DNA of 64,000 bases from the human T2T-CHM13v2.0 reference genome, Homo sapiens (GCA_009914755.4 CP086569.2:28800001-28864000), one strand, 5' to 3'; positions 1-29,685 are shown, numbered from the stretch's first letter. Made by a program: numbers and translations. The notes: generated from the letters alone by a model not told the origin.

Positions 1-364
1 TTCGATTGCATTCCATTCGATTGCATTCCATTCGAATCCTTTCCATTCCTTTCTATTCCATTCCATTTCATTCGATTTGATTCCATTCTGTTCTATTCCA
101 TTCAATTCTTTTTCATTCCATTCGAATCCTTTCTATTGCAGTCCATTCCATTCGAGTCCATTCCAATCCCTTCCATCCATTCCATTACAGTCCATTCCAA
201 TAGATTCCACTCCTTTGCCTTCCATTCGAATCCATTCCATTCTAGTCCATTCCATTTGAGTCAATTCCATTCCATTCCATTCTATTCCTTTCCAATCCAT
301 TCGATTCCATTCGATTCAATTCCATTTAATTCTCTTTCATTCTATTTTATTCCATGCCATTTGA
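1..364. repeat. Array 1 partial unit u0 (3' tail, B-type).
   Basis: The 77..259 peptide matches the B-type tail (IPFCS / NPFYC) seen at 4707 and 9461. Confidence 0.7.
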
Positions 365-399
365 TTGCATTGCATTCCATTCCGTTTGATTCCAGTCCA

Positions 400-412
400 T
401 TCAAGAAAGTTC
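400..412. promoter_or_regulatory. Perfect 3-unit heat-shock-element consensus TTCaaGAAagTTC (nTTCnnGAAnnTTCn), first copy. It recurs at the same offset in every HOR unit of both arrays (e.g. 2777, 5153, ... 32457).
   Basis: Read directly: ccattcaagaaagttccattcc. HSat3/SatIII arrays are established HSF1 targets, but function at this specific site is inference only. Confidence 0.3.
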
Positions 413-1405
413 CATTCCAGTCCATTGCTTTCGAGTCCATTCCATTCCACTGTAGTCTATTCCACTCCATTCCTTTCCATTCCATTCCATACTATTCCAT
501 TCCATTCCTTTGCATTCCGTTTCCAATCTATTCGAGTCCATTACATTCCAGTCCAATCCATTCGATTACATTCCTCTTGATTCCCTGCCAGTCGATTGCA
601 TTGCATACTAGACCATTCCAAAGGAGTCCATTCCATTCTATTTCAACACTTTCCATTCCACTCTGTTCGAGCCCATTCCATTCCAGTCCATTTAATTCAA
701 GGGCATTCCATTCCATTCCATTCCATTTCATATTATTCTATTCCATTCAATTCCATTCCAGATGATTCCGTTCCATTCTATACCATTGCTCTCTGTTCCA
801 TTCCATTCCATCTGTCTCCATTCCTTTCGTTTCGATTCCTTTCCATTCCATTCCATTACATTTGATCCTATTTTATTAAATAGCATTCTATTCGAGTGAT
901 TTCCATTCGAGTCCTTTCCATTCGATTCCATTCCATTCTATTCCATTCCTTTGGATTCCATTCCATTCCGTTCCGTTCACATCAATTCCTTGCGATTCCA
1001 TTACATTCGATTTCTTGCCATTCGATTCCATTCCTTTTGACTCCATTTCATTCGATTCCATTCCATTCCATTAATTTCCATTCCATTCGAGACCTTTCCA
1101 TTGCAGTCTTTTCCCTTCGAGTCCATTCCGTTCGATTCCCTTCCATTGGAGTCCGTACCAGTCTAGTCCATTCTATTCCAGTCCATTAGTTTCGACTCCA
1201 TTGCATTCGAGTGCATTCCATTTCGTGGCTGTCCATTTCATTCCGTTTGATGCCATTCCATACGATTCCATTCAATTCGAGACCATTCTATTCCTGTCCA
1301 TTCCTTGTGGTTCGATTCCATTTTACTCTAGTCCATTCCATTCCATTGAATTCCATTCGACTCTATTCCGTTCCATTCAATTCCATTCCATTCGATTCCA
1401 TTTTT

Positions 1406-1418
1406 TTCGAGAACCTTC
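1406..1418. promoter_or_regulatory. Second perfect HSE-consensus TTCgaGAAccTTC, once per array-1 HOR (tttttttcgagaaccttcc). In array 2 it is degraded to TTGgaGAAccTTC or GAActTTC.
   Basis: Read directly at 1401-1420, with periodic recurrence at +2377. A 2-unit GAAatTTC also occurs at 1870-1877. Confidence 0.25.
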
Positions 1419-2741
1419 CATTACACTCCCTTCCATTCCAGTGCATTCCATTCCAGTCTCTTCAGTTCTATTCCATTCCATTCGTTTCGATTCCATTCCA
1501 CTCCAGCCCATTCCATTCCATTCCATTCCTTTCTTTCCGTTTCATTAGATTCCATTGCATTCAATTCCATTCAATTCAATTCCGTGCTATTCAATTTGAT
1601 TCCTTTCCATTTAATTCCATAGCATTAGATTCCATTCCGTTCGATTCCATTCCATTTGATGCCATTCCATTTGATGCCATTCCGTGACATTCCATTCCAT
1701 TCGAGTCCATTCCGTTCCAATTCATTCCATTCCGTTTCATGAAATTCGAGTCCTTTCCAGTACATTTCATTCCAATCCCATCCAGTCCAATCTATTCCAT
1801 TCAATTCCTTTCCCTTCCATTTGATTATATTCCATTGATTTGATTCCATTCAGTTTGATTCCATTCCGTGAAATTTCGTTCCATTCTATTCCATTGCATT
1901 ACTTTCCATTCAATTCCATTCCATTTCATTTCAGTCCATTCGCTTCCTTTCCTTTCGATTCAATTCCATTTGATTCCACTCCATTCTATGCGATTTCATT
2001 CCAATCGATTCAATTCCATTCGATGACATTCCTTTCGTTTCCATTCCATTCGAGTCCATTCAATTTGAGCATTCGTGTCCATTCTATTCGAGTCCATTCC
2101 ATTACCGTCTATTCTATTCCCTTCCATTCCTGTTGATTCAATTTCATTCCGTTCCATTCGATTCCTTTCCATTCGATTCCATTCCTTTCCATTCCATTCC
2201 ATTCGTTCCCATTCCATGTGATTTCATTCCATTCCAGTCCATTATATTCGAGTCCACTCCACTCCATTCTATTACATTCAATTCCTCATGAGTCCGTTCC
2301 ATAACACTCCATGCATTTCGATTCCATTTCTTGCCAGTTTTCTTCCATTTTATTCCATTCCGTTCGATTCCATTCCATTCGATTGCATTCCATTCGATTG
2401 CATACCATTCGAATCCTTTCCATTCCTTTCTATTCCATTCCATTTCATTCGATTTGATTCCATTGTGTTCTATTCCATTCAATTCTTTTTCATTCCATTC
2501 GAATCGTTTCTATTGCAGTCCATTCCATTCGAGTCCATTCCAATCCCTTCCATCCATTCCATTACAGTCCATTCCAATAGATTCCACTCCTTTGCCTTCC
2601 ATTCGAATCCATTCCATTCTAGTCCATTCCATTTGAGTCAATTCCATTCCATTCCATTCTATTCCTTTCCAATCCATTCGATTCCATTCGATTCAATTCC
2701 ATTTGATTCTCTTTCATTCTATTTTATTCCATGCCATTTGA

Positions 2742-5117
2742 TTGCATTGCATTCCATTCCGTTTGATTCCAGTCCATTCAAGAAAGTTCCATTCCAGTCC
2801 ATTGCTTTCGAGTCCATTCCATTCCACTCTAGTCTATTCCACTCCATTCCTTTCCATTCCATTCCATACTATTCCATTCCATTCCTTTGCATTCCGTTTC
2901 CAATCTATTCGAGTCCATTACATTCCAGTCCAATCCATTCGATTACATTCCTCTTGATTCCCTGCCAGTCGATTGCATTGCATACTAGACCATTCCAAAG
3001 GAGTCCATTCCATTCTATTTCAACACTTTCCATTCCACTCTGTTCGAGTCCATTCCATTCCAGTCCATTTAATTCAAGGGCATTCCATTCCATTCCATTC
3101 CATTTCATATTATTCTATTCCATTCAATTCCATTCCAGATGATTCCATTCCATTCTATACCATTGCTCTCTGTTCCATTCCATTCCATCTGTCTCCATTC
3201 CTTTCGTTTCGATTCCTTTCCATTCCATTCCATTACATTTGATCCTATTTTATTAAATTGCATTCTATTCGAGTGATTTCCATTCGAGTCCTTTCCATTC
3301 GATTCCATTCCATTCTATTCCATTCCTTTGGATTCCATTCCATTCCGTTCCGTTCATATCAATTCCTTGCCATTCCATTACATTCGATTTCTTGCCATTC
3401 GATTCCATTCCTTTTGACTCCATTTCATTCGATTCCATTCCATTCCATTAATTTCCATTCCATTCGAGACATTTCCATTGCAGTCTTTCCCTTCGAGTCC
3501 ATTCCGTTCGATTCCCTTCCATTGGAGTCCGTACCAGTCTAGTCCATTCTATTCCAGTCCATTAGTTTCGACTCCATTGCATTCGAGTGCATTCCATTCC
3601 GTGGCTGTCCATTGCATTCCGTTTGATGTCATTCCATACGATTCCATTCAATTCGAGACCATTCTATTCCTGTCCATTCCTTGTGGTTCGATTCCATTTT
3701 ACTCTAGTCCATTCCATTCCATTGAATTCCATTCGACTCTATTCCGTTCCATTCAATTCCATTCCATTCGATTCCATTTTTTTCGAGAACCTTCCATTAC
3801 ACTCCCTTCCATTCCAGTGCATTCCATTCCAGTCTCTTCAGTTCTATTCCATTCCATTCGTTTCGATTCCATTCCACTCCAGCCCATTCCATTCCATTCC
3901 ATTCCTTTCTTTCCGTTTCATTAGATTCCATTGCATTCAATTCCATTCAATTCAATTCCGTGCTATTCAATTTGATTCCTTTCCATTTAATTCCATAGCA
4001 TTAGATTCCATTCCGTTCGATTCCATTCCATTTGATGCCATTCCATTTGATGCCATTCCGTGACATTCCATTCCATTCGAGTCCATTCCGTTCCAATTCA
4101 TTCCATTCCGTTTCATGAAATTCGAGTCCTTTCCAGTACATTTCATTCCAATCCCATCCAATCCAATCTATTCCATTCAATTCCTTTCCCTTCCATTTGA
4201 TTATATTCCATTGATTTGATTCCATTCAGTTTGATTCCATTCCGTGAAATTTCGTTCCATTCTATTCCATTGCATTACTTTCCATTCAATTCCATTCCAT
4301 TTCATTTCTGTCCATTCGCTTCCTTTCCTTTCGATTCAATTCCATTTGATTCCACTCCATTCTATGCGATTTCATTGCAATCGATTCAATTCCATTCGAT
4401 GACATTCCTTTCGTTTCCATTCCATTAGAGTCCATTCAATTTGAGCATTCGTGTCCATTCTATTCGAGTCCATTCCATTACCGTCTATTCTATTCCCTTC
4501 CATTCCTGTTGATTCAATTTCATTCCCTTCCATTCGATTCCTTTCCATTCGATTCCATTCCTTTCCATTCCATTCCATTCGTTCCCATTCCATGTGATTT
4601 CATTCCATTCCAGTGCATTATATTCGAGTCCACTCCACTCCATTCTATTACATTCAATTCCTCATGAGTCCGTTCCATAACACTCCCTGCATTTCGATTC
4701 CATTTCTTGCCAGTTTTCTTCCATTTTATTGCATTCCGTTCGATTCCATTCCATTCGATTGCATTCCATTCGATTGCATTCCATTCGAATCCTTTCCATT
4801 CCTTTCTATTCCATTCCATTTCATTCGATTTGATTCCATTCTGTTCTATTCCATTCAATTCTTTTTCATTCCATTCGAATCCTTTCTATTGCAGTCCATT
4901 CCATTCGAGTCCATTCCAATCCCTTCCATCCATTCCATTACAGTCCATTCCAATAGATTCCACTCCTTTGCCTTCCATTCGAATCCATTCCATTCTAGTC
5001 CATTCCATTTGAGTCAATTCCATTCCATTCCATTCTATTCCTTTCCAATCCATTCGATTCCATTCGATTCAATTCCATTTAATTCTCTTTCATTCTATTT
5101 TATTCCATGCCATTTGA
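2742..5117. repeat. Array 1 HOR unit u2 (2376 bp, subtype B).
   Basis: 'IGWDWN' peptide at 4001, MDGIGMKCTGK at 3967, 70-aa truncated MIPFSL (cattagagtcc stop variant at ~4431), 301-aa MHYIRVHS peptide (gtgcat variant) at 4613, Q/N-type MNGIEQNGIK. Confidence 0.8.
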
Positions 5118-7494
5118 TTGCATTGCATTCCATTCCGTTTGATTCCAGTCCATTCAAGAAAGTTCCATTCCAGTCCATTGCTTTCGAGTCCATTCCATTC
5201 CACTCTAGTCTATTCCACTCCATTCCTTTCCATTCCATTCCATACTATTCCATTCCATTCCTTTGCATTCCGTTTCCAATCTATTCGAGTCCATTACATT
5301 CCAGTCCAATCCATTCGATTACATTCCTCTTGATTCCCTGCCAGTCGATTGCATTGCATACTAGACCATTCCAAAGGAGTCCATTCCATTCTATTTCAAC
5401 ACTTTCCATTCCACTCTGTTCGAGTCCATTCCATTCCAGTCCATTTAATTCAAGGGCATTCCATTCCATTCCATTCCATTTCATATTATTCTATTCCATT
5501 CAATTCCATTCCAGATGATTCCATTCCATTCTATACCATTGCTCTCTGTTCCATTCCATTCCATCTGTCTCCATTCCTTTCGTTTCGATTCCTTTCCATT
5601 CCATTCCATTACATTTGATCCTATTTTATTAAATTGCATTCTATTCGAGTGATTTCCATTCGAGTCCTTTCCATTCGATTCCATTCCATTCTATTCCATT
5701 CCTTTGGATTCCATTCCATTCCGTTCCGTTCATATCAATTCCTTGCCATTCCATTACATTCGATTTCTTGCCATTCGATTCCATTCCTTTTGACTCCATT
5801 TCATTCGATTCCATTCCATTCCATTAATTTCCATTCCATTCGAGACCTTTCCATTGCAGTCTTTTCCCTTCGAGTCCATTCCGTTCGATTCCCTTCCATT
5901 GGAGTCCGTACCAGTCGAGTCCATTCTATTCCAGTCCATTAGTTTCGACTCCATTGCATTCGAGTGCATTCCATTCCGTGGCTGTCCATTGCATTCCGTT
6001 TGATGCCATTCCATATGATTCCATTCAATTCGAGACCATTCTATTCCTGTCCATTCCTTGTGGTTCGATTCCATTTTACTCTAGTCCATTCCATTCCATT
6101 GAATTCCATTCGACTCTATTCCGTTCCATTCAATTCCATTCCATTCGATTCCATTTTTTTCGAGAACCTTCCATTACACTCCCTTCCATTCCAGTGCATT
6201 CCATTCCAGTCTCTTCAGTTCTATTCCATTCCATTCGTTTCGATTCCATTCCACTCCAGCCCATTCCATTCCATTCCATTCCTTTCTTTCCGTTTCATTA
6301 GATTCCATTGCATTCAATTCCATTCAATTCAATTCCGTGCTATTCAATTTGATTCCTTTCCATTTAATTCCATAGCATTAGATTCCATTCCGTTCGATTC
6401 CATTCCATTTGATGCCATTCCATTTGATGCCATTCCGTGACATTCCATTCCATTCGAGTCCATTCCGTTCCAATTCATTCCATTCCGTTTCATGAAATTC
6501 GAGTCCTTTCCAGTACATTTCATTCCAATCCCATCCAGTCCAATCTATTCCATTCAATTCCTTTCCCTTCCATTTGATTATATTCCATTGATTTGATTCC
6601 ATTCAGTTTGATTCCATTCCGTGAAATTTCGTTCCATTCTATTCCATTGCATTACTTTCCATTCAATTCCATTCCATTTCATTTCAGTCCATTCGCTTCC
6701 TTTCCTTTCGATTCAATTCCATTTGATTCCACTCCATTCTATGCGATTTCATTCCAATCGATTCAATTCCATTCGATGACATTCCTTTCGTTTCCATTCC
6801 ATTCGAGTCCATTCAATTTGAGCATTCGTGTCCATTCTATTCGAGTCCATTCCATTACCGTCTATTCTATTCCCTTCCATTCCTGTTGATTCAATTTCAT
6901 TCCCTTCCATTCAATTCCTTTCCATTCGATTCCATTCCTTTCCATTCCATTCCATTCGTTCCCATTCCATGTGATTTCATTCCATTCCAGTCCATTATAT
7001 TCGAGTCCACTCCACTCCATTCTATTACATTCAATTCCTCATGAGTCCGTTCCATAACACTCCATGCATTTCGATTCCATTTCTTGCCAGTTTTCTTCCA
7101 TTTTATTCCATTCCGTTCGATTCCATTCCATTCGATTGCATTCCATTCGATTGCATACCATTCGAATCCTTTCCATTCCTTTCTATTCCATTCCATTTCA
7201 TTCGATTTGATTCCATTGTGTTCTATTCCATTCAATTCTTTTTCATTCCATTCGAATCGTTTTTATTGCAGTCCATTCCATTCGAGTCCATTCCAATCCC
7301 TTCCATCCATTCCATTACAGTCCATTCCAATAGATTCCACTCCTTTGCCTTCCATTCGAATCCATTCCATTCTAGTCCATTCCATTTGAGTCAATTCCAT
7401 TCCATTCCATTCTATTCCTTTCCAATCCATTCGATTCCATTCGATTCAATTCCATTTGATTCTCTTTCATTCTATTTTATTCCATGCCATTTGA
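5118..7494. repeat. Array 1 HOR unit u3 (2377 bp, subtype A1).
   Basis: Same markers as u1: TGWDWN peptide at 6378, 98-aa peptide at 6593, H/Y type at 6897. Confidence 0.8.
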
Positions 7495-9871
7495 TTGCAT
7501 TGCATTCCATTCCGTTTGATTCCAGTCCATTCAAGAAAGTTCCATTCCAGTCCATTGCTTTCGAGTCCATTCCATTCCACTCTAGTCTATTCCACTCCAT
7601 TCCTTTCCATTCCATTCCATACTATTCCATTCCATTCCTTTGCATTCCGTTTCCAATCTATTCGAGTCCATTACATTCCAGTCCAATCCATTCGATTACA
7701 TTCCTCTTGATTCCCTGCCAGTCGATTGCATTGCATACTAGACCATTCCAAAGGAGTCCATTCCATTCTATTTCAACACTTTCCATTCCACTCTGTTCGA
7801 GTCCATTCCATTCCAGTCCATTTAATTCAAGGGCATTCCATTCCATTCCATTCCATTTCATATTATTCTATTCCATTCAATTCCATTCCAGATGATTCCA
7901 TTCCATTCTATACCATTGCTCTCTGTTCCATTCCATTCCATCTGTCTCCATTCCTTTCGTTTCGATTCCTTTCCATTCCATTCCATTACATTTGATCCTA
8001 TTTTATTAAATTGCATTCTATTCGAGTGATTTCCATTCGAGTCCTTTCCATTCGATTCCATTCCATTCTATTCCATTCCTTTGGATTCCATTCCATTCCG
8101 TTCCGTTCATATCAATTCCTTGCCATTCCATTACATTCGATTTCTTGCCATTCGATTCCATTCCTTTTGACTCCATTTCATTCGATTCCATTCCATTCCA
8201 TTAATTTCCATTCCATTCGAGACCTTTCCATTGCAGTCTTTTCCCTTCGAGTCCATTCCGTTCGATTCCCTTCCATTGGAGTCCGTACCAGTCTAGTCCA
8301 TTCTATTCCAGTCCATTAGTTTCGACTCCATTGCATTCGAGTGCATTCCATTCCGTGGCTGTCCATTGCATTCCGTTTGATGCCATTCCATATGATTCCA
8401 TTCAATTCGAGACCATTCTATTCCTGTCCATTCCTTGTGGTTCGATTCCATTTTACTCTAGTCCATTCCATTCCATTGAATTCCATTCGACTCTATTCCG
8501 TTCCATTCAATTCCATTCCATTCGATTCCATTTTTTTCGAGAACCTTCCATTACACTCCCTTCCATTCCAGTGCATTCCATTCCAGTCTCTTCAGTTCTA
8601 TTCCATTCCATTCGTTTCGATTCCATTCCACTCCAGCCCATTCCATTCCATTCCATTCCTTTCTTTCCGTTTCATTAGATTCCATTGCATTCAATTCCAT
8701 TCAAATCAATTCCGTGCTATTCAATTTGATTCCTTTCCATTTAATTCCATAGCATTAGATTCCATTCCGTTCGATTCCATTCCATTTGATGCCATTCCAT
8801 TTGATGCCATTCCGTGACATTCCATTCCATTCGAGTCCATTCCGTTCCAATTCATTCCATTCCGTTTCATGAAATTCGAGTCCTTTCCAGTACATTTCAT
8901 TCCAATCCCATCCAATCCAATCTATTCCATTCAATTCCTTTCCCTTCCATTTGATTATATTCCATTGATTTGATTCCATTCAGTTTGATTCCATTCCGTG
9001 AAATTTCGTTCCATTCTATTCCATTGCATTACTTTCCATTCAATTCCATTCCATTTCATTTCTGTCCATTCGCTTCCTTTCCTTTCGATTCAATTCCATT
9101 TGATTCCACTCCATTCTATGCGATTTCATTGCAATCGATTCAATTCCATTCGATGACATTCCTTTCGTTTCCATTCCATTAGAGTCCATTCAATTTGAGC
9201 ATTCGTGTCCATTCTATTCGAGTCCATTCCATTACCGTCTATTCTATTCCCTTCCATTCCTGTTGATTCAATTTCATTCCCTTCCATTCGATTCCTTTCC
9301 ATTCGATTCCATTCCTTTCCATTCCATTCCATTCGTTCCCATTCCATGTGATTTCATTCCATTCCAGTGCATTATATTCGAGTCCACTCCACTCCATTCT
9401 ATTACATTCAATTCCTCATGAGTCCGTTACATAACACTCCCTGCATTTCGATTCCATTTCTTGCCAGTTTTCTTCCAGTTTATTGCATTCCGTTCGATTC
9501 CATTCCATTCGATTGCATTCCATTCGATTGCATTCCATTCGAATCCTTTCCATTCCTTTCTATTCCATTCCATTTCATTCGATTTGATTCCATTCTGTTC
9601 TATTCCATTCAATTCTTTTTCATTCCATTCGAATCCTTTCTATTGCAGTCCATTCCATTCGAGTCCATTCCAATCCCTTCCATCCATTCCATTACAGTCC
9701 ATTCCAATAGATTCCACTCCTTTGCCTTCCATTCGAATCCATTCCATTCTAGTCCATTCCATTTGAGTCAATTCCATTCCATTCCATTCTATTCCTTTCC
9801 AATCCATTCGATTCCATTCGATTCAATTCCATTTAATTCTCTTTCATTCTATTTTATTCCATGCCATTTGA
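7495..9871. repeat. Array 1 HOR unit u4 (2377 bp, subtype B').
   Basis: B markers (8721, 8755, 8970 70-aa peptide, 9367 301-aa peptide) plus private variants (SPLH, LPVY in the 9367 peptide). Confidence 0.8.
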
Positions 9872-12248
9872 TTGCATTGCATTCCATTCCGTTTGATTCC
9901 AGTCCATTCAAGAAAGTTCCATTCCAGTCCATTGCTTTCGAGTCCATTCCATTCCACTCTAGTCTATTCCACTCCATTCCTTTCCATTCCATTCCATACT
10001 ATTCCATTCCATTCCTTTGCATTCCGTTTCCAATCTACTCGAGTCCATTACATTCCAGTCCAATCCATTCGATTACATTCCTCTTGATTCCCTGCCAGTC
10101 GATTGCATTGCATACTAGACCATTCCAAAGGAGTCCATTCCATTCTATTTCAACACTTTCCATTCCACTCTGTTCGAGTCCATTCCATTCCAGTCCATTT
10201 AATTCAAGGGCATTCCATTCCATTCCATTCCATTTCATATTATTCTATTCCATTCAATTCCATTCCAGATGATTCCATTCCATTCTATACCATTGCTCTC
10301 TGTTCCATTCCATTCCATCTGTCTCCATTCCTTTCGTTTCGATTCCTTTCCATTCCATTCCATTACATTTGATCCTATTTTATTAAATTGCATTCTATTC
10401 GAGTGATTTCCATTCGAGTCCTTTCCATTCGATTCCATTCCATTCTATTCCATTCCTTTGGATTCCATTCCATTCCGTTCCGTTCACATCAATTCCTTGC
10501 GATTCCATTACATTCGATTTCTTGCCATTCGATTCCATTCCTTTTGACTCCATTTCATTCGATTCCATTCCATTCCATTAATTTCCATTCCATTCGAGAC
10601 CTTTCCATTGCAGTCTTTTCCCTTCGAGTCCATTCCGTTCGATTCCCTTCCATTGGAGTCCGTACCAGTCGAGTCCATTCTATTCCAGTCCATTAGTTTC
10701 GACTCCATTGCATTCGAGTGCATTCCATTCCGTGGCTGTCCATTCCATTCCGTTTGATGCCATTCCATACGATTCCATTCAATTCGAGACCATTCTATTC
10801 CTGTCCATTCCTTGTGGTTCGATTCCATTTTACTCTAGTCCATTCCATTCCATTGAATTCCATTCGACTCTATTCCGTTCCATTCAATTCCATTCCATTC
10901 GATTCCATTTTTTTCGAGAACCTTCCATTACACTCCCTTCCATTCCAGTGCATTCCATTCCAGTCTATTCAGTTCTATTCCATTCCATTCGTTTCGATTC
11001 CATTCCTCTCCAGCCCATTCCATTCCATTCCATTCCTTTCTTTCCGTTTCATTAGATTCCATTGCATTCAATTCCATTCAATTCAATTCCGTGCTATTCA
11101 ATTTGATTCCTTTCCATTTAATTCCATAGCATTAGATTCCATTCCGTTCGATTCCATTCCATTTGATGCCATTCCATTTGATGTCATTCCGTGACATTCC
11201 ATTCCATTCGAGTCCATTCCGTTCCAATTCATTCCATTCCGTTTCATGAAATTCGAGTCCTCTCCAGTACATTTCATTCCAATCCCAACCAATCCAATCT
11301 ATTCCATTCAATTCCTTTCCCTTCCATTTGATTATATTCCATTGATTTGATTCCATTCAGTTTGATTCCATTCCGTGAAATTTCGTTCCATTCTATTCCA
11401 TTGCATTACTTTCCATTCAATTCCATTCCATTTCATTTCTGTCCATTCGCTTCCTTTCCTTTCGATTCAATTCCATTTGATTCCACTCCATTCTATGCGA
11501 TTTCATTGCAATCAATTCAATTCCATTCGATGACATTCCTTTCGTTTCCATTCCATTCGAGTCCATTCAATTTGAGCATTCGTATCCATTCTATTCGAGT
11601 CCATTCCATTACCGTCTATTCTATTCCCTTCCATTCCTGTTGATTCAATTTCATTCCCTTCCATTCAATTCCTTTCCATTCGATTCCATTCCTTTCCATT
11701 CCATTCCATTCGTTCCCATTCCATGTGATTTCATTCCATTCCAGTGCATTATATTTGAGTCCACTCCACTCCATTCTATTACATTCAATTCCTCATGAGT
11801 CCGTTCCATAACACTCCCTGCATTTCGATTCCATTTCTTGCCAGTTTTCTTCCATTTTATTGCATTCCGTTCGATTCCATTCCATTCGATTGCATTCCAT
11901 TCGATTGCATTCCATTCGAATCCTTTCCATTCCTTTCTATTCCATTCCATTTCATTCGATTTGATTCCATTCTGTTCTATTCCATTCAATTCTTTTTCAT
12001 TCCATTCGAATCCTTTCTATTGCAGTCCATTCCATTCGAGTCCATTCCAATCCCTTCCATCCATTCCATTACACTCCATTCCAATAGATTCCACTCCTTT
12101 GCCTTCCATTCGAATCCATTCCATTCTAGTCCATTCCATTTGAGTCAATTCCATTCCATTCCATTCTATTCCTTTCCAATCCATTCGATTCCATTCGATT
12201 CAATTCCATTTAATTCTCTTTCATTCTATTTTATTCCATGCCATTTGA
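9872..12248. repeat. Array 1 HOR unit u5 (2377 bp, subtype C, an A/B hybrid).
   Basis: MVGIGMKCTGE (11098) and MYWRG (11132) variants, 98-aa peptide (A-like) with a Q/N-type tail (B-like). Private CpG transitions: atcgatt -> atcaatt at ~11515 and tattcgag -> tatttgag at ~11753. Confidence 0.8.
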
Positions 12249-19377: not shown

Positions 19378-21754
19378 TTGCATTGCATTCCATTCCGTTT
19401 GATTCCAGTCCATTCAAGAAAGTTCCATTCCAGTCCATTGCTTTCGAGTCCATTCCATTCCACTCTAGTCTATTCCACTCCATTCCTTTCCATTCCATTC
19501 CATACTATTCCATTCCATTCCTTTGCATTCCGTTTCCAATCTATTCGAGTCCATTACATTCCAGTCCAATCCATTCGATTACATTCCTCTTGATTCCCTG
19601 CCAGTCGATTGCATTGCATACTAGACCATTCCAAAGGAGTCCATTCCATTCTATTTCAACACTTCCCATTCCACTCTGTTCGAGTCCATTCCATTCCAGT
19701 CCATTTAATTCAAGGGCATTCCATTCCATTCCATTCCATTTCATATTATTCTATTCCATTCAATTCCATTCCAGATGATTCCATTCCATTCTATACCATT
19801 GCTCTCTGTTCCATTCCATTCCATCTGTCTCCATTCCTTTCGTTTCGATTCCTTTCCATTCCATTCCATTACATTTGATCCTATTTTATTAAATTGCATT
19901 CTATTCGAGTGATTTCCATTCGAGTCCTTTCCATTCGATTCCATTCCATTCTATTCCATTCCTTTGGATTCCATTCCATTCCGTTCCGTTCATATCAATT
20001 CCTTGCCATTCCATTACATTCGATTTCTTGCCATTCGATTCCATTCCTTTTGACTCCATTTCATTCGATTCCATTCCATTCCATTAATTTCCATTCCATT
20101 CGAGACCTTTCCATTGCAGTCTTTTCCCTTCGAGTCCATTCCGTTCGATTCCCTTCCATTGGAGTCCGTACCAGTCTAGTCCATTCTATTCCAGTCCATT
20201 AGTTTCGACTCCATTGCATTCGAGTGCATTCCATTCCGTGGCTGTCCATTGCATTCCGTTTGATGCCATTCCATATGATTCCATTCAATTCGAGACCATT
20301 CTATTCCTTTCCATTCCTTGTGGTTCGATTCCATTTTACTCTAGTCCATTCCATTCCATTGAATTCCATTCGACTCTATTCCGTTCCATTCAATTCCATT
20401 CCATTCGATTCCATTTTTTTCGAGAACCTTCCATTACACTCCCTTCCATTCCAGTGCATTCCATTCCAGTCTCTTCAGTTCTATTCCATTCCATTCGTTT
20501 CGATTCCATTCCACTCCAGCCCATTCCATTCCATTCCATTCCTTTCTTTCCGTTTCATTAGATTCCATTGCATTCAATTCCATTCAAATCAATTCCGTGC
20601 TATTCAATTTGATTCCTTTCCATTTAATTCCATAGCATTAGATTCCATTCCGTTCGATTCCATTCCATTTGATGCCATTCCATTTGATGCCATTCCGTGA
20701 CATTCCATTCCATTCGAGTCCATTCCGTTCCAATTCATTCCATTCCGTTTCATGAAATTCGAGTCCTTTCCAGTACATTTCATTCCAATCCCATCCAATC
20801 CAATCTATTCCATTCAATTCCTTTCCCTTCCATTTGATTATATTCCATTGATTTGATTCCATTCAGTTTGATTCCATTCCGTGAAATTTCGTTCCATTCT
20901 ATTCCATTGCATTACTTTCCATTCAATTCCATTCCATTTCATTTCTGTCCATTCGCTTCCTTTCCTTTCGATTCAATTCCATTTGATTCCACTCCATTCT
21001 ATGCGATTTCATTGCAATCGATTCAATTCCATTCGATGACATTCCTTTCGTTTCCATTCCATTAGAGTCCATTCAATTTGAGCATTCGTGTCCATTCTAT
21101 TCGAGTCCATTCCATTACCGTCTATTCTATTCCCTTCCATTCCTGTTGATTCAATTTCATTCCCTTCCATTCGATTCCTTTCCATTCGATTCCATTCCTT
21201 TCCATTCCATTCCATTCGTTCCCATTCCATGTGATTTCATTCCATTCCAGTGCATTATATTCGAGTCCACTCCACTCCATTCTATTACATTCAATTCCTC
21301 ATGAGTCCGTTCCATAACACTCCCTGCATTTCGATTCCATTTCTTGCCAGTTTTCTTCCATTTTATTGCATTCCGTTCGATTCCATTCCATTCGATTGCA
21401 TTCCATTCGATTGCATTCCATTCGAATCCTTTCCATTCCTTTCTATTCCATTCCATTTCATTCGATTTGATTCCATTCTGTTCTATTCCATTCAATTCTT
21501 TTTCATTCCATTCGAATCCTTTCTATTGCAGTCCATTCCATTCGAGTCCATTCCAATCCCTTCCATCCATTCCATTACAGTCCATTCCAATAGATTCCAC
21601 TCCTTTGCCTTCCATTCGAATCCATTCCATTCTAGTCCATTCCATTTGAGTCAATTCCATTCCATTCCATTCTATTCCTTTCCAATCCATTCGATTCCAT
21701 TCGATTCAATTCCATTTAATTCTCTTTCATTCTATTTTATTCCATGCCATTTGA
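19378..21754. repeat. Array 1 HOR unit u9 (2377 bp, subtype B).
   Basis: B markers at 20604, 20638, 20853 and 21250. The 301-aa peptide is identical to the one at 4613. Confidence 0.8.
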
Positions 21755-24131
21755 TTGCATTGCATTCCATTCCGTTTGATTCCAGTCCATTCAAGAAAGT
21801 TCCATTCCAGTCCATTGCTTTCGAGTCCATTCCATTCCACTCTAGTCTATTCCACTCCATTCCTTTCCATTCCATTCCATACTATTCCATTCCATTCCTT
21901 TGCATTCCGTTTCCAATCTATTCGAGTCCATTACATTCCAGTCCAATCCATTCGATTACATTCCTCTTGATTCCCTGCCAGTCGATTGCATTGCATACTA
22001 GACCATTCCAAAGGAGTCCATTCCATTCTATTTCAACACTTTCCATTCCACTCTGTTCGAGTCCATTCCATTCCAGTCCATTTAATTCAAGGGCATTCCA
22101 TTCCATTCCCTTCCATTTTATATTATTCTATTCCATTCAATTCCATTCCAGATGATTCCATTCCATTCTATACCATTGCTCTCTGTTCCATTCCATTCCA
22201 TCTGTCTCCATTCCTTTCGTTTCGATTCCTTTCCATTCCATTCCATTACATTTGATCCTATTTTATTAAATTGCATTCTATTCGAGTGATTTCCATTCGA
22301 GTCCTTTCCATTCGATTCCATTCCATTCTATTCCATTCCTTTGGATTCCATTCCATTCCGTTCCGTTCACATCAATTCCTTGCGATTCCATTACATTCGA
22401 TTTCTTGCCATTCGATTCCATTCCTTTTGACTCCATTTCATTCGATTCCATTCCATTCCATTAATTTCCATTCCATTCGAGACCTTTCCATTGCAGTCTT
22501 TTCCCTTCGAGTCCATTCCGTTCGATTCCCTTCCATTGGAGTCCGTACCAGTCGAGTCCATTCTATTCCAGTCCATTAGTTTCGACTCCATTGCATTCGA
22601 GTGCATTCCATTCCGTGGCTGTCCATTCCATTCCGTTTGATGCCATTCCATACGATTCCATTCAATTCGAGACCATTCTATTCCTGTCCATTCCTTGTGG
22701 TTCGATTCCATTTTACTCTAGTCCATTCCATTCCATTGAATTCCATTCGACTCTATTCCGTTCCATTCAATTCCATTCCATTCGATTCCATTTTTTTCGA
22801 GAACCTTCCATTACACTCCCTTCCATTCCAGTGCATTCCATTCCAGTCTATTCAGTTCTATTCCATTCCATTCGTTTCGATTCCATTCCTCTCCAGCCCA
22901 TTCCATTCCATTCCATTCCTTTCTTTCCGTTTCATTAGATTCCATTGCATTCAATTCCATTCAATTCAATTCCGTGCTATTCAATTTGATTCCTTTCCAT
23001 TTAATTCCATAGCATTAGATTCCATTCCGTTCGATTCCATTCCATTTGATGCCATTCCATTTGATGTCATTCCGTGACATTCCATTCCATTCGAGTCCAT
23101 TCCGTTCCAATTCATTCCATTCCGTTTCATGAAATTCGAGTCCTCTCCAGTACATTTCATTCCAATCCCAACCAATCCAATCTATTCCATTCAATTCCTT
23201 TCCCTTCCATTTGATTATATTCCATTGATTTGATTCCATTCAGTTTGATTCCATTCCGTGAAATTTCGTTCCATTCTATTCCATTGCATTACTTTCCATT
23301 CAATTCCATTCCATTTCATTTCTGTCCATTCGCTTCCTTTCCTTTCGATTCAATTCCATTTGATTCCACTCCATTCTATGCGATTTCATTGCAATCAATT
23401 CAATTCCATTCGATGACATTCCTTTCGTTTCCATTCCATTCGAGTCCATTCAATTTGAGCATTCGTGTCCATTCTATTCGAGTCCATTCCATTACCGTCT
23501 ATTCTATTCCCTTCCATTCCTGTTGATTCAATTTCATTCCCTTCCATTCAATTCCTTTCCATTCGATTCCATTCCTTTCCATTCCATTCCATTCGTTCCC
23601 ATTCCATGTGATTTCATTCCATTCCAGTGCATTATATTTGAGTCCACTCCACTCCATTCTATTACATTCAATTCCTCATGAGTCCGTTCCATAACACTCC
23701 CTGCATTTCGATTCCATTTCTTGCCAGTTTTCTTCCATTTTATTGCATTCCGTTCGATTCCATTCCATTCGATTGCATTCCATTCGATTGCATTCCATTC
23801 GAATCCTTTCCATTCCTTTCTATTCCATTCCATTTCATTCGATTTGATTCCATTCTGTTCTATTCCATTCAATTCTTTTTCATTCCATTCGAATCCTTTC
23901 TATTGCAGTCCATTCCATTCGAGTCCATTCCAATCCCTTCCATCCATTCCATTACACTCCATTCCAATAGATTCCACTCCTTTGCCTTCCATTCGAATCC
24001 ATTCCATTCTAGTCCATTCCATTTGAGTCAATTCCATTCCATTCCATTCTATTCCTTTCCAATCCATTCGATTCCATTCGATTCAATTCCATTTAATTCT
24101 CTTTCATTCTATTTTATTCCATGCCATTTGA
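21755..24131. repeat. Array 1 HOR unit u10 (2377 bp, subtype C).
   Basis: MVGIG (22981) and MYWRG (23015) variants exactly 11,883 bp after u5. The same private variants as u5 appear at ~23398 and ~23636. Confidence 0.8.
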
Positions 24132-26512
24132 TTGCATTGCATTCCATTCCGTTTGATTCCAGTCCATTCAAGAAAGTTCCATTCCAGTCCATTGCTTTCG
24201 AGTCCATTCCATTCCACTGTAGTCTATTCCACTCCATTCCTTTCCATTCCATTCCATACTATTCCATTCCATTCCTTTGCATTCCGTTTCCAATCTATTC
24301 GAGTCCATTACATTCCAGTCCAATCCATTCGATTACATTCCTCTTGATTCCCTGCCAGTCGATTGCATTGCATACTAGACCATTCCAAAGGAGTCCATTC
24401 CATTCTATTTCAACACTTTCCATTCCACTCTGTTCGAGTCCATTCCATTCCAGTCCATTTAATTCAAGGGCATTCCATTCCATTCCATTCCATTTCATAT
24501 TATTCTATTCCATTCAATTCCATTCCAGATGATTCCGTTCCATTCTATACCATTGCTCTCTGTTCCATTCCATTCCATCTGTCTCCATTCCTTTCGTTTC
24601 GATTCCTTTCCATTCCATTCCATTACATTTGATCCTATTTTATTAAATTGCATTCTATTCGAGTGATTTCCATTCGAGTCCTTTCCATTCGATTCCATTC
24701 CATTCTATTCCATTCCTTTGGATTCCATTCCATTCCGTTCCGTTCACATCAATTCCTTGCGATTCCATTACATTCGATTTCTTGCCATTCGATTCCATTC
24801 CTTTTGACTCCATTTCATTCGATTCCATTCCATTCCATTAATTTCCATTCCATTCGAGACCTTTCCATTGCAGTCATTTCCCTTCGAGTCCATTCCGTTC
24901 GATTCCCTTCCATTGGAGTCCGTACCAGTCGAGTCCATTCTATTCCAGTCCATTAGTTTCGACTCCATTGCATTCGAGTGCATTCCATTCCGTGGCTGTC
25001 CATTCCATTCCGTTTGATGCCATTCCATACGATTCCATTCAATTCGAGACCATTCTATTCCTGTCCATTCCTTGTGGTTCGATTCCATTTTACTCTAGTC
25101 CATTCCATTCCATTCCATTGAATTCCATTGGACTCTATTCCGTTCCATTCAATTCCATTCCATTCGACTCCATTTTTTTCGAGAACCTTCCATTACACTC
25201 CCTTCCATTCCAGTGCATTCCATTCCAGTCTCTTCAGTTCTATTCCATTCCATTCGTTTCGATTCCATTCCACTCCAGCCCATTCCATTCCATTCCATTC
25301 CTTTCTTTCCGTTTCATTAGATTCCATTGCATTCAATTCCATTCAATTCAATTCCGTGCTATTCAATTTGATTCCTTTCCATTTAATTCCATAGCATTAG
25401 ATTCCATTCCGTTTGATTCCATTCCATTTGATGCCATTCCATTTGATGCCATTCCGTGACATTCCATTCCATTCGAGTCCATTCCATCCAATTCATTCCA
25501 TTCCGTTTCATGAAATTCGAGTCCTTTCCAGTACATTTCATTCCAATCCCATCCAGTCCAATCTATTCCATTCAATTCCTTTCCCTTCCATTTGATTATA
25601 TTCCATTGATTTGATTCCATTCAGTTTGATTCCATTCCGTGAAATTTCGTTCCATTCTATTCCATTGCATTACTTTCCATTCAATTCCATTCCATTTCAT
25701 TTCAGTCCATTCGCTTCCTTTCCTTTCGATTCAATTCCATTTGATTCCACTCCATTCTATGCGATTTCATTCCAATCGATTCAATTCCATTCAATGACAT
25801 TCCTTTCCTTTCCATTCCATTCGAGTCCATTCAATTTGAGCATTCGTGTCCATTCTATTCGAGTCCATTCCATTACCGTCTATTCTATTCCCTTCCATTC
25901 CTGTTGATTCAATTTCATTCCCTTCCATTCAATTCCTTTCCATTCGATTCCATTCCTTTCCATTCCATTCCATTCGTTCCCATTCCATGTGATTTCATTC
26001 CATTCCAGTCCATTATATTCGAGTCCACTCCACTCCATTCTATTACATTCAATTCCTCATGAGTCCGTTCCATAACACTCCATGCATTTCGATTCCATTT
26101 CTTGCCAGTTTTCTTCCATTTTATTCCATTCCGTTCGATTCCATTCCATTCGATTGCATTCCATTCGATTGCATACCATTCGAATCCTTTCCATTCCTTT
26201 CTATTCCATTCCATTTCATTCGATTTGATTCCATTGTGTTCTATTCCATTCAATTCTTTTTCATTCCATTCGAATCGTTTCTATTGCAGTCCATTCCATT
26301 CGAGTCCATTCCAATCCCTTCCATCCATTCCATTACAGTCCATTCCAATAGATTCCACTCCTTTGCCTTCCATTCGAATCCATTCCATTCTAGTCCATTC
26401 CATTTGAGTCAATTCCATTCCATTCCATTCTATTCCTTTCCAATCCATTCGATTCCATTCGATTCAATTCCATTTGATTCTCTTTCATTCTATTTTATTC
26501 CATGCCATTTGA
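24132..26512. repeat. Array 1 HOR unit u11 (2381 bp, subtype A2, with one extra pentamer).
   Basis: 85-aa peptide at 25363 and 88-aa peptide at 25128, each 11,888 bp after its u6 counterpart. An extra 'cattc' near 25101-25116 gives the 2381-bp length. Confidence 0.8.
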
Positions 26513-28889
26513 TTGCATTGCATTCCATTCCGTTTGATTCCAGTCCATTCAAGAAAGTTCCATTCCAGTCCATTGCTTTCGAGTCCATTCCATTCCACTC
26601 TAGTCTATTCCACTCCATTCCTTTCCATTCCATTCCATACTATTCCATTCCATTCCTTTGCATTCCGTTTCCAATCTATTCGAGTCCATTACATTCCAGT
26701 CCAATCCATTCGATTACATTCCTCTTGATTCCCTGCCAGTCGATTGCATTGCATACTAGACCATTCCAAAGGAGTCCATTCCATTCTATTTCAACACTTT
26801 CCATTCCACTCTGTTCGAGTCCATTCCATTCCAGTCCATTTAATTCAAGGGCATTCCATTCCATTCCATTCCATTTCATATTATTCTATTCCATTCAATT
26901 CCATTCCAGATGATTCCATTCCATTCTATACCATTGCTCTCTGTTCCATTCCATTCCATCTGTCTCCATTCCTTTCGTTTCGATTCCTTTCCATTCCATT
27001 CCATTACATTTGATCCTATTTTATTAAATTGCATTCTATTCGAGTGATTTCCATTCGAGTCCTTTCCATTCGATTCCATTCCATTCTATTCCATTCCTTT
27101 GGATTCCATTCCATTCCGTTCCGTTCATATCAATTCCTTGCCATTCCATTACATTCGATTTCTTGCCATTCGATTCCATTCCTTTTGACTCCATTTCATT
27201 CGATTCCATTCCATTCCATTAATTTCCATTCCATTCGAGACCTTTCCATTGCAGTCTTTTCCCTTCGAGTCCATTCCGTTCGATTCCCTTCCATTGGAGT
27301 CCGTACCAGTCTAGTCCATTCTATTCCAGTCCATTAGTTTCGACTCCATTGCGTTCGAGTGCATTCCATTCCGTGGCTGTCCATTGCATTCCGTTTGATG
27401 CCATTCCATATGATTCCATTCAATTCGAGACCATTCTATTCCTGTCCATTCCTTGTGGTTCGATTCCATTTTACTCTAGTCCATTCCATTCCATTGAATT
27501 CCATTCGACTCTATTCCGTTCCATTCAATTCCATTCCATTCGATTCCATTTTTTTCGAGAACCTTCCATTACACTCCCTTCCATTCCAGTGCATTCCATT
27601 CCAGTCTCTTCAGTTCTATTCCATTCCATTCGTTTCGATTCCATTCCACTCCAGCCCATTCCATTCCATTCCATTCCTTTCTTTCCGTTTCATTAGATTC
27701 CATTGCATTCAATTCCATTCAAATCAATTCCGTGCTATTCAATTTGATTCCTTTCCATTTAATTCCATAGCATTAGATTCCATTCCGTTCGATTCCATTC
27801 CATTTGATGCCATTCCATTTGATGCCATTCCGTGACATTCCATTCCATTCGAGTCCATTCCGTTCCAATTCATTCCATTCCGTTTCATGAAATTCGAGTC
27901 CTTTCCAGTACATTTCATTCCAATCCCATCCAATCCAATCTATTCCATTCAATTCCTTTCCCTTCCATTTGATTATATTCCATTGATTTGATTCCATTCA
28001 GTTTGATTCCATTCCGTGAAATTTCGTTCCATTCTATTCCATTGCATTACTTTCCATTCAATTCCATTCCATTTCATTTCTGTCCATTCGCTTCCTTTCC
28101 TTTCGATTCAATTCCATTTGATTCCACTCCATTCTATGCGATTTCATTGCAATCGATTCAATTCCATTCGATGACATTCCTTTCGTTTCCATTCCATTAG
28201 AGTCCATTCAATTTGAGCATTCGTGTCCATTCTATTCGAGTCCATTCCATTACCGTCTATTCTATTCCCTTCCATTCCTGTTGATTCAATTTCATTCCCT
28301 TCCATTCGATTCCTTTCCATTCGATTCCATTCCTTTCCATTCCATTCCATTCGTTCCCATTCCATGTGATTTCATTCCATTCCAGTGCATTATATTCGAG
28401 TCCACTCCACTCCATTCTATTACATTCAATTCCTCATGAGTCCGTTCCATAACACTCCCTGCATTTCGATTCCATTTCTTGCCAGTTTTCTTCCATTTTA
28501 TTGCATTCCGTTCGATTCCATTCCATTCGATTGCATTCCATTCGATTGCATTCCATTCGAATCCTTTCCATTCCTTTCTATTCCATTCCATTTCATTCGA
28601 TTTGATTCCATTCTGTTCTATTCCATTCAATTCTTTTTCATTCCATTCGAATCCTTTCTATTGCAGTCCATTCCATTCGAGTCCATTCCAATCCCTTCCA
28701 TCCATTCCATTACACTCCATTCCAATAGATTCCACTCCTTTGCCTTCCATTCGAATCCATTCCATTCTAGTCCATTCCATTTGAGTCAATTCCATTCCAT
28801 TCCATTCTATTCCTTTCCAATCCATTCGATTCCATTCGATTCAATTCCATTTAATTCTCTTTCATTCTATTTTATTCCATGCCATTTGA
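26513..28889. repeat. Array 1 HOR unit u12 (2377 bp, subtype B).
   Basis: B markers at 27739, 27773, 27988 and 28385. Confidence 0.8.
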
Positions 28890-29670
28890 TTGCATTGCAT
28901 TCCATTCCGTTTGATTCCAGTCCATTCAAGAAAGTTCCATTCCAGTCCATTGCTTTCGAGTCCATTCCATTCCACTCTAGTCTATTCCACTCCATTCCTT
29001 TCCATTCCATTCCATACTATTCCATTCCATTCCTTTGCATTCCGTTTCCAATCTATTCGAGTCCATTACATTCCAGTCCAATCCATTCGATTACATTCCT
29101 CTTGATTCCCTGCCAGTCGATTGCATTGCATACTAGACCATTCCAAAGGAGTCCATTCCATTCTATTTCAACACTTTCCATTCCACTCTGTTCGAGTCCA
29201 TTCCATTCCAGTCCATTTAATTCAAGGGCATTCCATTCCATTCCATTCCATTTCATATTATTCTATTCCATTCAATTCCATTCCAGATGATTCCATTCCA
29301 TTCTATACCATTGCTCTCTGTTCCATTCCATTCCATCTGTCTCCATTCCTTTCGTTTCGATTCCTTTCCATTCCATTCCATTACATTTGATCCTATTTTA
29401 TTAAATTGCATTCTATTCGAGTGATTTCCATTCGAGTCCTTTCCATTCGATTCCATTCCATTCTATTCCATTCCTTTGGATTCCATTCCATTCCGTTCCG
29501 TTCACATCAATTCCTTGCGATTCCATTACATTCGATTTCTTGCCATTCGATTCCATTCCTTTTGACTCCATTTCATTCGATTCCATTCCATTCCATTAAT
29601 TTCCATTCCATTCGAGACCTTTCCATTGCAGTCTTTTCCCTTCGAGTCCATTCCGTTCGATTCCCTTCCA

Positions 29671-29685
29671 TTCGATTCCATTCCA
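29671..29685. repeat. 15-bp (three-pentamer) tandem duplication 'ttcgattccattcca', diagnostic of all array-2 units.
   Basis: Array 1 reads cgattcccttccattggagtcc. Array 2 reads cgattcccttcca|ttcgattccattcca|ttggagtcc. This gives the 107-aa versus 102-aa peptide difference (extra IRFHS) in every 3.5-kb unit. Confidence 0.8.

What the first reader, a model, noticed from the sequence alone, without database searches (positions are those of the whole stretch)
365..28889. Five-unit (~11.9 kb) super-HOR A-B-A-B-C superimposed on the 2.38-kb period
Unit subtypes, defined by shared SNVs and indels visible in the ORF-track peptides, run A1 B A1 B' C / A2 B' A2 B C / A2 B. C-type units (MVGIG, MYWRG, cg -> ca and cg -> tg variants) sit at 9872 and 21755. 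Their markers are exactly 11,883 bp apart, and A2-specific markers recur at 11,888 bp. Nested HOR structure implies at least two rounds of amplification. The mosaic exceptions (B versus B', A1 versus A2) suggest gene conversion between units.
Basis: seen in the sequence. Interest (0 to 1): 0.55.

Follow-up and report, generated by a model that had tools for sequence, protein, structure and literature searches.

The report
Nested repeat in Y-type satellite DNA
This stretch is non-coding pentamer satellite DNA of the human Y-chromosome DYZ1 type, in which a shortened 2.38-kb repeat unit has been copied in blocks of five units (11.9 kb). The pattern is real, but it is an ordinary product of unequal exchange in satellite arrays.

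Summary
Window 365-28889 holds 12 full units of 2,376-2,381 bp. They fall into three clades ordered A B A B C / A B A B C / A B.

- **Periodicity.** Unit pairs five apart differ at 8.6 sites on average, against 17-27 at lags 1-4 (permutation p = 0.0003). Exact 100-mer recurrence peaks at lags 5 and 10.
- **Caveats.** Only about 2.4 periods are visible. "A1" is not a clade, because U3 is a B/A recombinant. The B versus B' split rests on conflicting single SNVs.
The 2.38-kb unit is a deletion derivative of the adjacent 3.53-kb repeat (28890-64000). That repeat fits DYZ1/HSat3A6: one HaeIII site per unit, a colinear published primer map, and 95-98% identity to independent ~3.56-kb contigs.
- **Derivation.** The short unit lacks 1,137 bp (removed between 14-bp direct repeats and taking out the HaeIII site) plus two 15-bp segments. 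It carries 16 derived substitutions.
- **Junction.** The two arrays join in register inside a hybrid unit at about 29264-29666.
- **Best explanation.** Deletion, amplification, divergence into A/B/C, then at least two tandem duplications of a five-unit block by unequal sister-chromatid exchange, with gene-conversion patches.

This is ordinary satellite dynamics and of low interest.

The parts
1..364 (+). Partial 2.38-kb unit (3' tail). The array continues upstream of the window.
   Evidence: Identical to the tails of U2, U4 and U9 (B type), and 1 mismatch from the C-type tails. It is not A type.
365..12248 (+). Block copy 1: U1 (A, 365), U2 (B, 2742), U3 (B/A recombinant, 5118; switch between 6016 and 6538), U4 (B, 7495), U5 (C, 9872).
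12249..24131 (+). Block copy 2: U6 (A2, 12249), U7 (B, 14625), U8 (A2 with a B-like patch at 19101-19142, 17002), U9 (B, 19378), U10 (C, 21755).
   Evidence: Compared with copy 1, the five units differ at 15, 11, 15, 4 and 4 sites.
24132..28889 (+). Block copy 3, truncated: U11 (A2, with a 5-bp TCCAT insertion at 25099-25103) and U12 (B).
   Evidence: U6 versus U11 gives 3 events and U7 versus U12 gives 8. The U6 + U11 clade has 99% bootstrap support.
1637..1668 (+). Junction of the 1,137-bp deletion that defines the short unit (example in U1). It recurs once per unit, for example at 4013, 6390 and 8767.
   Evidence: The 32-mer CCGTTCGATTCCATTCCATTTGATGCCATTCC occurs in 11 of 12 short units and in none of the long units. 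The breakpoint lies inside the 14-bp direct repeat TTCGATTCCATTCC.
28890..32423 (+). Hybrid transition unit (D1). Its 5' end is short-unit type and the rest is DYZ1 type. The crossover interval is about 29264-29666.
   Evidence: D1 carries short-unit alleles at alignment columns 150-375. It then contains the 15-bp segment that the short units lack (29666-29680), and all long-unit alleles from column 975 onward.
28890..64000 (+). DYZ1-type (HSat3A6-like) array. Ten units of 3,527-3,549 bp, including one of 3,303 bp; the last is cut by the window end.
   Evidence: HaeIII GGCC occurs once per unit in 8 of 10 units. Published DYZ1 primers A, B, E, C/F, D and G map once per unit in the published order. 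Identity to independent ~3.56-kb-period contigs is 95-98%.

Best explanation
The whole window is non-coding, (TTCCA)n-derived satellite III DNA of the Y-chromosomal DYZ1 (HSat3A6) type.

The region 365-28889 is a sub-array of a shortened DYZ1 unit. The proposed history is as follows.

1. A full-length ~3.53-kb unit lost 1,137 bp through misaligned exchange or slippage between two 14-bp direct repeats. This removed the HaeIII site and the classical PCR target. Two three-pentamer (15-bp) segments were also lost.
2. The 2.38-kb product was amplified in tandem and diverged into three lineages: A, B, and C (C is sister to B).
3. A five-unit block A-B-A-B-C (11,883-11,888 bp) was duplicated in tandem at least twice. 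The mechanism was unequal exchange between copies misaligned by exactly five units. On a non-recombining Y this would be between sister chromatids.
4. Short conversion or recombination tracts then moved alleles between units.
5. The sub-array meets the ordinary DYZ1-type array through an in-register homologous exchange inside one hybrid unit.

The following parts are shown directly:
- the unit structure;
- the polarity of the deletions and substitutions;
- the lag-5 periodicity;
- the block-spanning identity;
- the recombinant units;
- the hybrid junction.

The following parts are inferred:
- the molecular mechanism (unequal sister-chromatid exchange and gene conversion);
- the Y-chromosomal location;
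- selective neutrality.

No sequence-specific function is proposed. The periodicity is read as a by-product of how tandem arrays turn over.
For: **Satellite nature.**
- A pentamer-derived array covers 1-63985 with uniform composition.
- No Rfam family matches.
- ORFs are only translated pentamers.

**DYZ1 identity of the 3.53-kb units.**
- One HaeIII site per unit.
- Primers from PMC3925983 Table 5 map once per unit in the published order and spacing.
- The recalled 154-bp amplicon primers hit once per unit.
- Identity to 39 independent contigs is 95-98%. Several of these have 3,539-3,562-bp periods.
- Unit lengths fit the published mean of 3,543 bp.

**The short unit is a derived deletion variant.**
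- It is colinear with the long unit, with a single offset jump of 1,151 bp.
- The gaps are 15, 1,137 and 15 bp.
- External DYZ1 copies contain all three missing segments and agree with the long units at 16 of 19 fixed differences.
- The deletion junction sits in a 14-bp direct repeat.

**Five-unit block.** Supported by the lag statistics and by the 1,647-bp exact run across a unit boundary at the 11,883-bp offset.

**Clades.** Bootstrap support is C 99.7%, B 93%, A2 94% and U6 + U11 99%.

**Conversion or recombination.** U3, U8, and the U7/U10 patch.

**Hybrid junction.**

**Literature.**
- Yq12 evolves by unequal exchange, with observed sister-chromatid exchanges (10.1101/2022.12.01.518724).
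- About 5% of DYZ1 units are under 3 kb (10.1101/2022.12.01.518658 supplement).
- Yq12 has a high mutation rate, with 29% of new mutations looking like conversion (PMC12240836).

**CpG decay.** CpG transitions are about 3-fold enriched (10 of 56 SNV sites against 6.1% of bases, p = 0.002). This fits constitutive methylation.
Against: - Only 2.4 block copies are visible, and the array leaves the window upstream. Whether 11.9 kb is an array-wide period or a local triplication is unknown.
- The partial unit at 1-364 lacks the one allele shared by both C units in that stretch.
- The A2-defining alleles sit at both A positions of copy 2 but at neither A position of copy 1. Simple block duplication therefore needs an extra within-block conversion step, or a more complex history.
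- The deletion-junction 32-mer was found in no public metagenome or bacterial-genome contig, whereas DYZ1 itself was found 39 times. There is thus no independent sighting of this variant.
- The chromosomal origin and species could not be checked directly.
- A test for variants copied from non-orthologous positions within the window was negative (1 of 57 against 1 of 114 for controls).
Confidence: 0.8

Rival explanations
1. An array-wide, regular 11.9-kb higher-order repeat. In this reading the five-unit block, not the 2.38-kb unit, is the unit of homogenisation across a long array of tens to hundreds of copies, as in alpha-satellite HOR or superHOR arrays.
For: There are strong lag-5 and lag-10 peaks. 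Identity spans a unit boundary at the block offset. Block length is conserved to within 5 bp.
Against: Only 2.4 copies are seen. Copy 1 differs from copy 2 at 41 sites in its first three units but at only 8 in its last two, which suggests a patchwork rather than uniform homogenisation. B units are nearly interchangeable whatever their block position. The upstream tail gives no support.
Confidence: 0.35
2. Assembly artefact. The apparent block duplication comes from mis-joined or duplicated reads in a near-identical satellite.
For: Arrays at about 99% identity are error-prone in assembly. No read data are available here.
Against: The block copies are not identical. Each has private variants, such as the U11 5-bp insertion, the U5-only SNVs and the U7-only SNVs. 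The differences are structured phylogenetically. Unit phase is preserved exactly through all junctions.
Confidence: 0.05
3. A chance ordering of three unit subtypes that arose and spread independently, with no block duplication.
For: There are few units (12) and only two C units.
Against: Permutation of unit order gives p = 0.0003 (0.002 for any lag). U6 is closer to U11 (3 events, lag 5) than to U8 (8 events, lag 2). A 1,647-bp exact run crosses the C-to-A2 boundary at the block offset.
Confidence: 0.02
4. A selected functional periodicity. The 11.9-kb spacing would be maintained because it positions protein-binding or chromatin features.
For: None in the sequence. HSat3 arrays do bind transcription factors in bulk (PMC11526998).
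Against: The differences between A, B and C are scattered point changes rich in transversions and CpG decay, with no motif gain. The neighbouring DYZ1-type units show different, irregular patterns.
Confidence: 0.03

Closest known systems
DYZ1 / HSat3A6, the ~3.56-kb HaeIII nested tandem repeat of human Yq12
   Same: - It has the same pentamer ancestry.
- The long units in 28890-64000 have one HaeIII site each.
- The published primer map is colinear with these units.
- Unit lengths are close to the published mean of 3,543 bp.
- The short units are homologous along their full length and carry six of the seven published primer sites that mapped here (B, C, D, E, F, G) (the length figure comes from the 10.1101/2022.12.01.518658 supplement).
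   Different: - The 2.38-kb units lack 1,167 bp, including the HaeIII site and the 154-bp PCR target.
- They have 16 derived substitutions of their own.
- They form a sub-array of their own with an 11.9-kb superperiod.
- The long units here are 2-5% from typical DYZ1 contigs, as expected for a peripheral block.
The 2.7-kbp and 3.1-kbp repeat arrays at the Yq11/Yq12 transition (Hallast et al., 10.1101/2022.12.01.518658)
   Same: These are shorter, DYZ1-related units that form their own tandem arrays next to DYZ1.
   Different: The 2.7-kbp unit is a chimera, 77% DYZ1-like and 23% DYZ18-like. The unit here is 2.38 kb and maps colinearly to DYZ1 along its whole length.
Alpha-satellite HORs and superHORs (for example CentromereArchitect, PMC8336445; orangutan Y 58mer superHOR, PMC12428378)
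   Same: Periodicity is hierarchical: a multi-unit block is copied as a whole, so units one block apart are more alike than neighbours.
   Different: The base units here are 2.38 kb and differ by only 0.1-1.5%, whereas alpha-satellite monomers are 171 bp and differ by tens of percent (the 171-bp and tens-of-percent figures are from memory). This is not centromeric, and only about 2.4 block copies are seen.
DYZ2 / HSat1B, the ~2.4-kb Yq12 repeat
   Same: The unit length is similar, and DYZ2 also neighbours DYZ1.
   Different: DYZ2 is an AT-rich simple repeat plus an Alu fragment plus HSATI. The unit here is 39% GC and pentamer-derived throughout.

Membership tests
Human satellite III (HSat3) | Derived from tandem CATTC/GGAAT pentamers | tested here: met
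   TRF consensus units are multiples of TTCCA across 1-63985. Rotations of TTCCA make up 32% of all 5-mers in a unit.
Human satellite III (HSat3) | Organised as kilobase-scale nested tandem repeats | tested here: met
   Periods are 2,376-2,381 bp and 3,527-3,549 bp.
DYZ1 / HSat3A6 | Unit of about 3.56 kb bounded by one HaeIII site | tested here: not met
   For the 2.38-kb units of the finding, there are no GGCC sites in 1-28889 and the unit is 2.38 kb. The adjacent 3.53-kb units do meet it, in 8 of 10 units.
DYZ1 / HSat3A6 | Colinear with the published DYZ1 primer map (PMC3925983 Table 5) | tested here: inconclusive
   In the long units, primers A, B, E, C/F, D and G occur once per unit in the published order. 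In the short units, B through G are present once per unit, while A and the HaeIII-spanning site are deleted. Primer H did not match under a substitution-only search.
DYZ1 / HSat3A6 | Sequence descent from DYZ1 units | tested here: met
   Shared parts differ from the neighbouring long units at about 0.9% of fixed sites. External DYZ1 contigs polarise the three deletions and 16 substitutions as derived in the short unit.
DYZ1 / HSat3A6 | Male-specific location on Yq12 | not testable with these tools
   No human genome collection was available. The assignment rests on sequence features only.
DYZ2 / HSat1B | Tripartite unit: AT-rich simple repeat, Alu fragment, HSATI | tested here: not met
   GC is uniformly 0.38-0.40. 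Nineteen consecutive 120-bp windows covering unit positions 1-2,280 of 2,377 each map to the DYZ1-type unit.
Yq11/Yq12 2.7-kbp repeat | About 2.7-kb unit, of which 23% derives from DYZ18 | tested here: not met
   The unit is 2.38 kb, and 120-bp windows covering positions 1-2,280 of 2,377 are all colinear with DYZ1-type sequence. The published consensus was not available for direct alignment.
Alpha-satellite-type HOR / superHOR | Block of discrete, mutually divergent monomers repeated with high block-to-block identity | tested here: inconclusive
   Block-to-block identity (99.4-99.85%) exceeds neighbour identity (about 98.9%). However, the "monomers" are 2.38-kb units differing by at most 1.5%, and only 2.4 blocks are visible.

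The most novel reading that the evidence does not exclude
The 2.38-kb HaeIII-less unit with its 11.9-kb A-B-A-B-C block may be a so-far undescribed, discrete DYZ1-derived satellite sub-family. It would be comparable to the 2.7- and 3.1-kbp arrays reported as new in 2023. Its copy number and block order could differ among Y lineages, which would make it a structural marker for dating unequal-exchange events on the Y.
Probability: 0.3. Interest if true: 0.3.

Novelty: new member of a known kind. Interest (0 to 1): 0.2.

Why it matters
The region is a clean, small worked example of how satellite arrays build hierarchy. It shows the following events, each with readable breakpoints:

- a deletion variant;
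- its amplification;
- its divergence into subtypes;
- duplication of a multi-unit block;
- later conversion between units.

There are two practical consequences.

- These units cannot be detected by HaeIII-based or 154-bp-PCR DYZ1 assays.
- NsiI would cut the array into a diagnostic 4.75-kb and 7.13-kb ladder.

It does not change what is known about satellite evolution or Y-chromosome biology.

Tried and rejected
1. **A ~1.18-kb sub-period** that would make the 2.38-kb unit a dimer and the 3.53-kb unit a trimer. Self-alignments at other offsets sit at the 69% pentamer background, so this was rejected. The apparent double alignment of short to long units comes from the 1,137-bp deletion.

2. 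**Independent sightings of the deletion junction.** There were 0 hits in bacterial-genome and metagenome contigs. The positive control, a DYZ1 23-mer, found 39 loci.

3. **Variants copied from non-orthologous positions in the window.** 1 of 57 derived 21-mers had such a match, against 1 of 114 controls. There is no signal.

4. **Confirming the recalled 154-bp primer pair in the paper library.** It was not found. It was replaced by the published primer table of PMC3925983.

5. **The Altemose 2022 review of HSat periodicities.** It is not held.

6. **Rfam** gave no match. ORFs are translated pentamers only.

7. **DYZ2 identity**, suggested by the 2.4-kb length, was rejected on composition and colinearity.
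Full report
**What the window is.**

- Tandem Repeats Finder reports one continuous pentamer-derived array over 1-63985. Its consensus units are multiples of TTCCA.
- GC content is a flat 0.38-0.40 with a constant strong C-over-G skew.
- Nothing matches any Rfam family.
- The "ORFs" are translations of the pentamer (IPFHS... / WNGME...).

The sequence is non-coding classical satellite III-type DNA.

**Checking the observation.**

- A 2,377-bp query finds 12 full copies between 365 and 28889 at 98.6-100% identity, all in one phase.
- Their lengths are 2,376-2,381 bp, and the alignment has 63 variable columns.
- The mean number of differences between units is 25.5, 19.0, 17.0 and 26.9 at lags 1-4. 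It drops to 8.6 at lag 5, returns to 25.2 at lag 6, and is 11.5 at lag 10.
- Shuffling unit order reaches the observed lag-5 value in 0.03% of 200,000 permutations, and in 0.2% if any lag from 1 to 7 is allowed.
- At high stringency, the fraction of exact 100-mers recurring at each lag is 0.35, 0.49, 0.50, 0.31, 0.73, 0.33, 0.51, 0.54, 0.39, 0.69 and 0.29 for lags 1 to 11. The peaks are at lags 5 and 10.
- The seven private markers of the C units are exactly 11,883 bp apart.
- A2 markers downstream of a 5-bp insertion in U11 (25099-25103) are 11,888 bp apart.
- The longest exact identity at the 11,883-bp offset is 1,647 bp (11585-13231). It runs across the boundary between a C unit and the following A2 unit, which shows that multi-unit blocks were copied.

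**Unit types.**

I polarised each variant using the neighbouring long units as outgroup.

- A units (U1, 3, 6, 8, 11), B units (U2, 4, 7, 9, 12) and C units (U5, 10) each have their own derived alleles.
- C shares six derived alleles with B but lacks six others. It is therefore a sister lineage of B, not a mosaic.

Neighbour-joining with bootstrap gave the following support:

| Clade | Bootstrap support |
|---|---|
| C | 99.7% |
| B | 93% |
| B + C | 95% |
| A2 (U6, 8, 11) | 94% |
| U6 + U11 | 99% |
| "A1" (U1 + U3) | 2% |

- U3 is a recombinant. It carries the B state at all six informative sites up to window position 6016 and the A state at all ten from 6538 onward. The chance of one clean switch is 2.5e-4.
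- U8 has a B-like or ancestral patch at 19101-19142.
- U7 and U10 share a two-SNV patch (14980/14989 and 22110/22119).
Another SNV groups U4 + U9 + U12 and conflicts with it.

**What the unit is.**

- From 28890 to the end of the window the period changes to about 3.53 kb. There are ten units of 3,527-3,549 bp, including one of 3,303 bp.
- The 84% identity between short and long units in a naive alignment is an artefact.
- Window by window, the short unit is colinear with the long unit at high score, with a single jump in offset of 1,151 bp.
- In a joint alignment the short units lack 15 bp, 1,137 bp and 15 bp. They differ from the long units at only 21 near-fixed columns out of 2,375. Two of those 21 are alignment ambiguity at the junction.
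- The large deletion lies between two copies of TTCGATTCCATTCC.
- A junction-specific 32-mer occurs in 11 of 12 short units and in no long unit.

**Identity of the long units.**

- They have one HaeIII site per unit in 8 of 10 units. The short array has none.
- Primers published for the 3,564-bp HaeIII unit of DYZ1 (PMC3925983, Table 5) map once per long unit in the published order and spacing: A, HaeIII, B, E, C/F, D, G.
- The short units keep B through G and have lost A.
- The 154-bp sex-typing primer pair, which I recalled from memory and did not find in the library, also hits once per long unit, 154 bp apart, and never in the short units.
- A DYZ1 23-mer finds 6 contigs in bacterial assemblies and 33 in metagenomes. 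Several are about 3.6 kb long or show 3,539-3,562-bp periods.
- One long unit of the window is 95-98% identical to most of these contigs.
- These external copies contain all three segments missing from the short unit and agree with the window's long units at 16 of 19 fixed differences.

The short unit is therefore the derived form: a DYZ1 deletion variant. In DYZ1 coordinates, the deletion runs from about 404 bp upstream to about 733 bp downstream of the HaeIII site.

**The junction.**

- The first long unit (28890-32423) is a hybrid.
- It carries short-unit alleles at five markers up to 29264.
- It then contains the 15-bp segment the short units lack (29666-29680), and long-unit alleles from there on.
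- The two arrays therefore meet by an in-register homologous exchange, with no foreign sequence.

**Mechanism and literature.**

- The T2T-Y paper describes DYZ1 as a ~3.6-kb nested tandem repeat of HSat3. It reports iterated tandem duplications consistent with unequal exchange, and sister-chromatid exchanges in Yq12 (10.1101/2022.12.01.518724).
- Hallast et al. report DYZ1 units of 1,165-3,608 bp, with 95% longer than 3 kb and a mean of 3,543 bp. They also report shorter DYZ1-related 2.7- and 3.1-kbp arrays at the Yq11/Yq12 border (10.1101/2022.12.01.518658).
[quoted passage not shown] About 29% of these looked like interlocus conversion. The same paper reports a lowered transition/transversion ratio for segmental duplications (PMC12240836).
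- The variants here are 25 transitions (10 at CpG, about 3-fold enriched, p = 0.002) and 30 transversions.
- Indels among units are in multiples of 5 bp, apart from two single-base indels in the short units.
- With that published rate, block copies 0.23-0.41% apart would be roughly 3,000-5,300 generations old, and the A/B split about 14,000. This is a rough inference that ignores conversion.

**What remains open.**

- Only 2.4 block copies are visible.
- The partial unit at 1-364 is non-A, as the period predicts. It lacks the one allele that both C units carry in that stretch, and that allele is also polymorphic among B units. Whether the period continues upstream is therefore unknown.
- The A2 alleles occupy both A positions of copy 2 but neither A position of copy 1. 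This requires a within-block conversion step or a more complex history.
- The junction 32-mer has no hit in the public contig collections.
- The chromosomal location and species could not be verified with the tools at hand.

**Verdict.** It is an instance of well-understood satellite dynamics in a DYZ1-derived sub-array. Interest is low.

Noticed in passing
window 28890-64000: The DYZ1-type array is much more heterogeneous than the short array, with 10-104 differences between units. There are two subtypes: D1, 2, 5, 6, 7, 8 against D3, 9, 10, with D4 intermediate. Similarity is partial at six units (21,210 bp: D1-D7 differ at 23 sites, D2-D8 at 10) and at four units.
   Followed up: partly
window 57167-60469: One DYZ1-type unit is only 3,303 bp long because of a 230-bp internal deletion (alignment columns 1863-2092). 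This is another length variant arising inside the array.
   Followed up: partly
window 51807-51829 and 55340-55362: Two consecutive long units have lost the HaeIII/StuI site through point changes (AGGCC to AAGCC and ATTCC). A HaeIII digest would therefore give a 10.6-kb fragment here.
   Followed up: no
window 2311, 7064, 14194, 18947, 26082: An NsiI site (ATGCAT) is present only in A-type short units. An in-silico digest gives alternating 4,753-bp and 7,130/7,135-bp fragments, which is a simple physical read-out of the A-B / A-B-C order.
   Followed up: partly
L001-L006 (e.g. L001 BMRF01000076.1 Actinomadura cremea JCM 3308; L004, L005 JCM Streptosporangium/Streptomyces; L003 Streptomyces sp. 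NPDC050549): Contigs filed under bacterial genome assemblies are 95-98% identical to the DYZ1-type unit of this window. This is almost certainly human Y-satellite contamination, as the T2T-Y paper describes for RefSeq.
   Followed up: partly
window 365-28889 (63 variable alignment columns): The substitution spectrum among short units is unusually rich in transversions (30 transversions against 25 transitions). No derived allele could be traced to a non-orthologous donor within the window.
   Followed up: partly
window 28890-64000, alignment columns 983-987, 1317-1331, 2106-2115, 2454-2468, 3178-3192, 3464-3473: Polymorphic indels among long units are all 5, 10 or 15 bp, that is, whole pentamers. 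This indicates slippage or misalignment in pentamer register.
   Followed up: no
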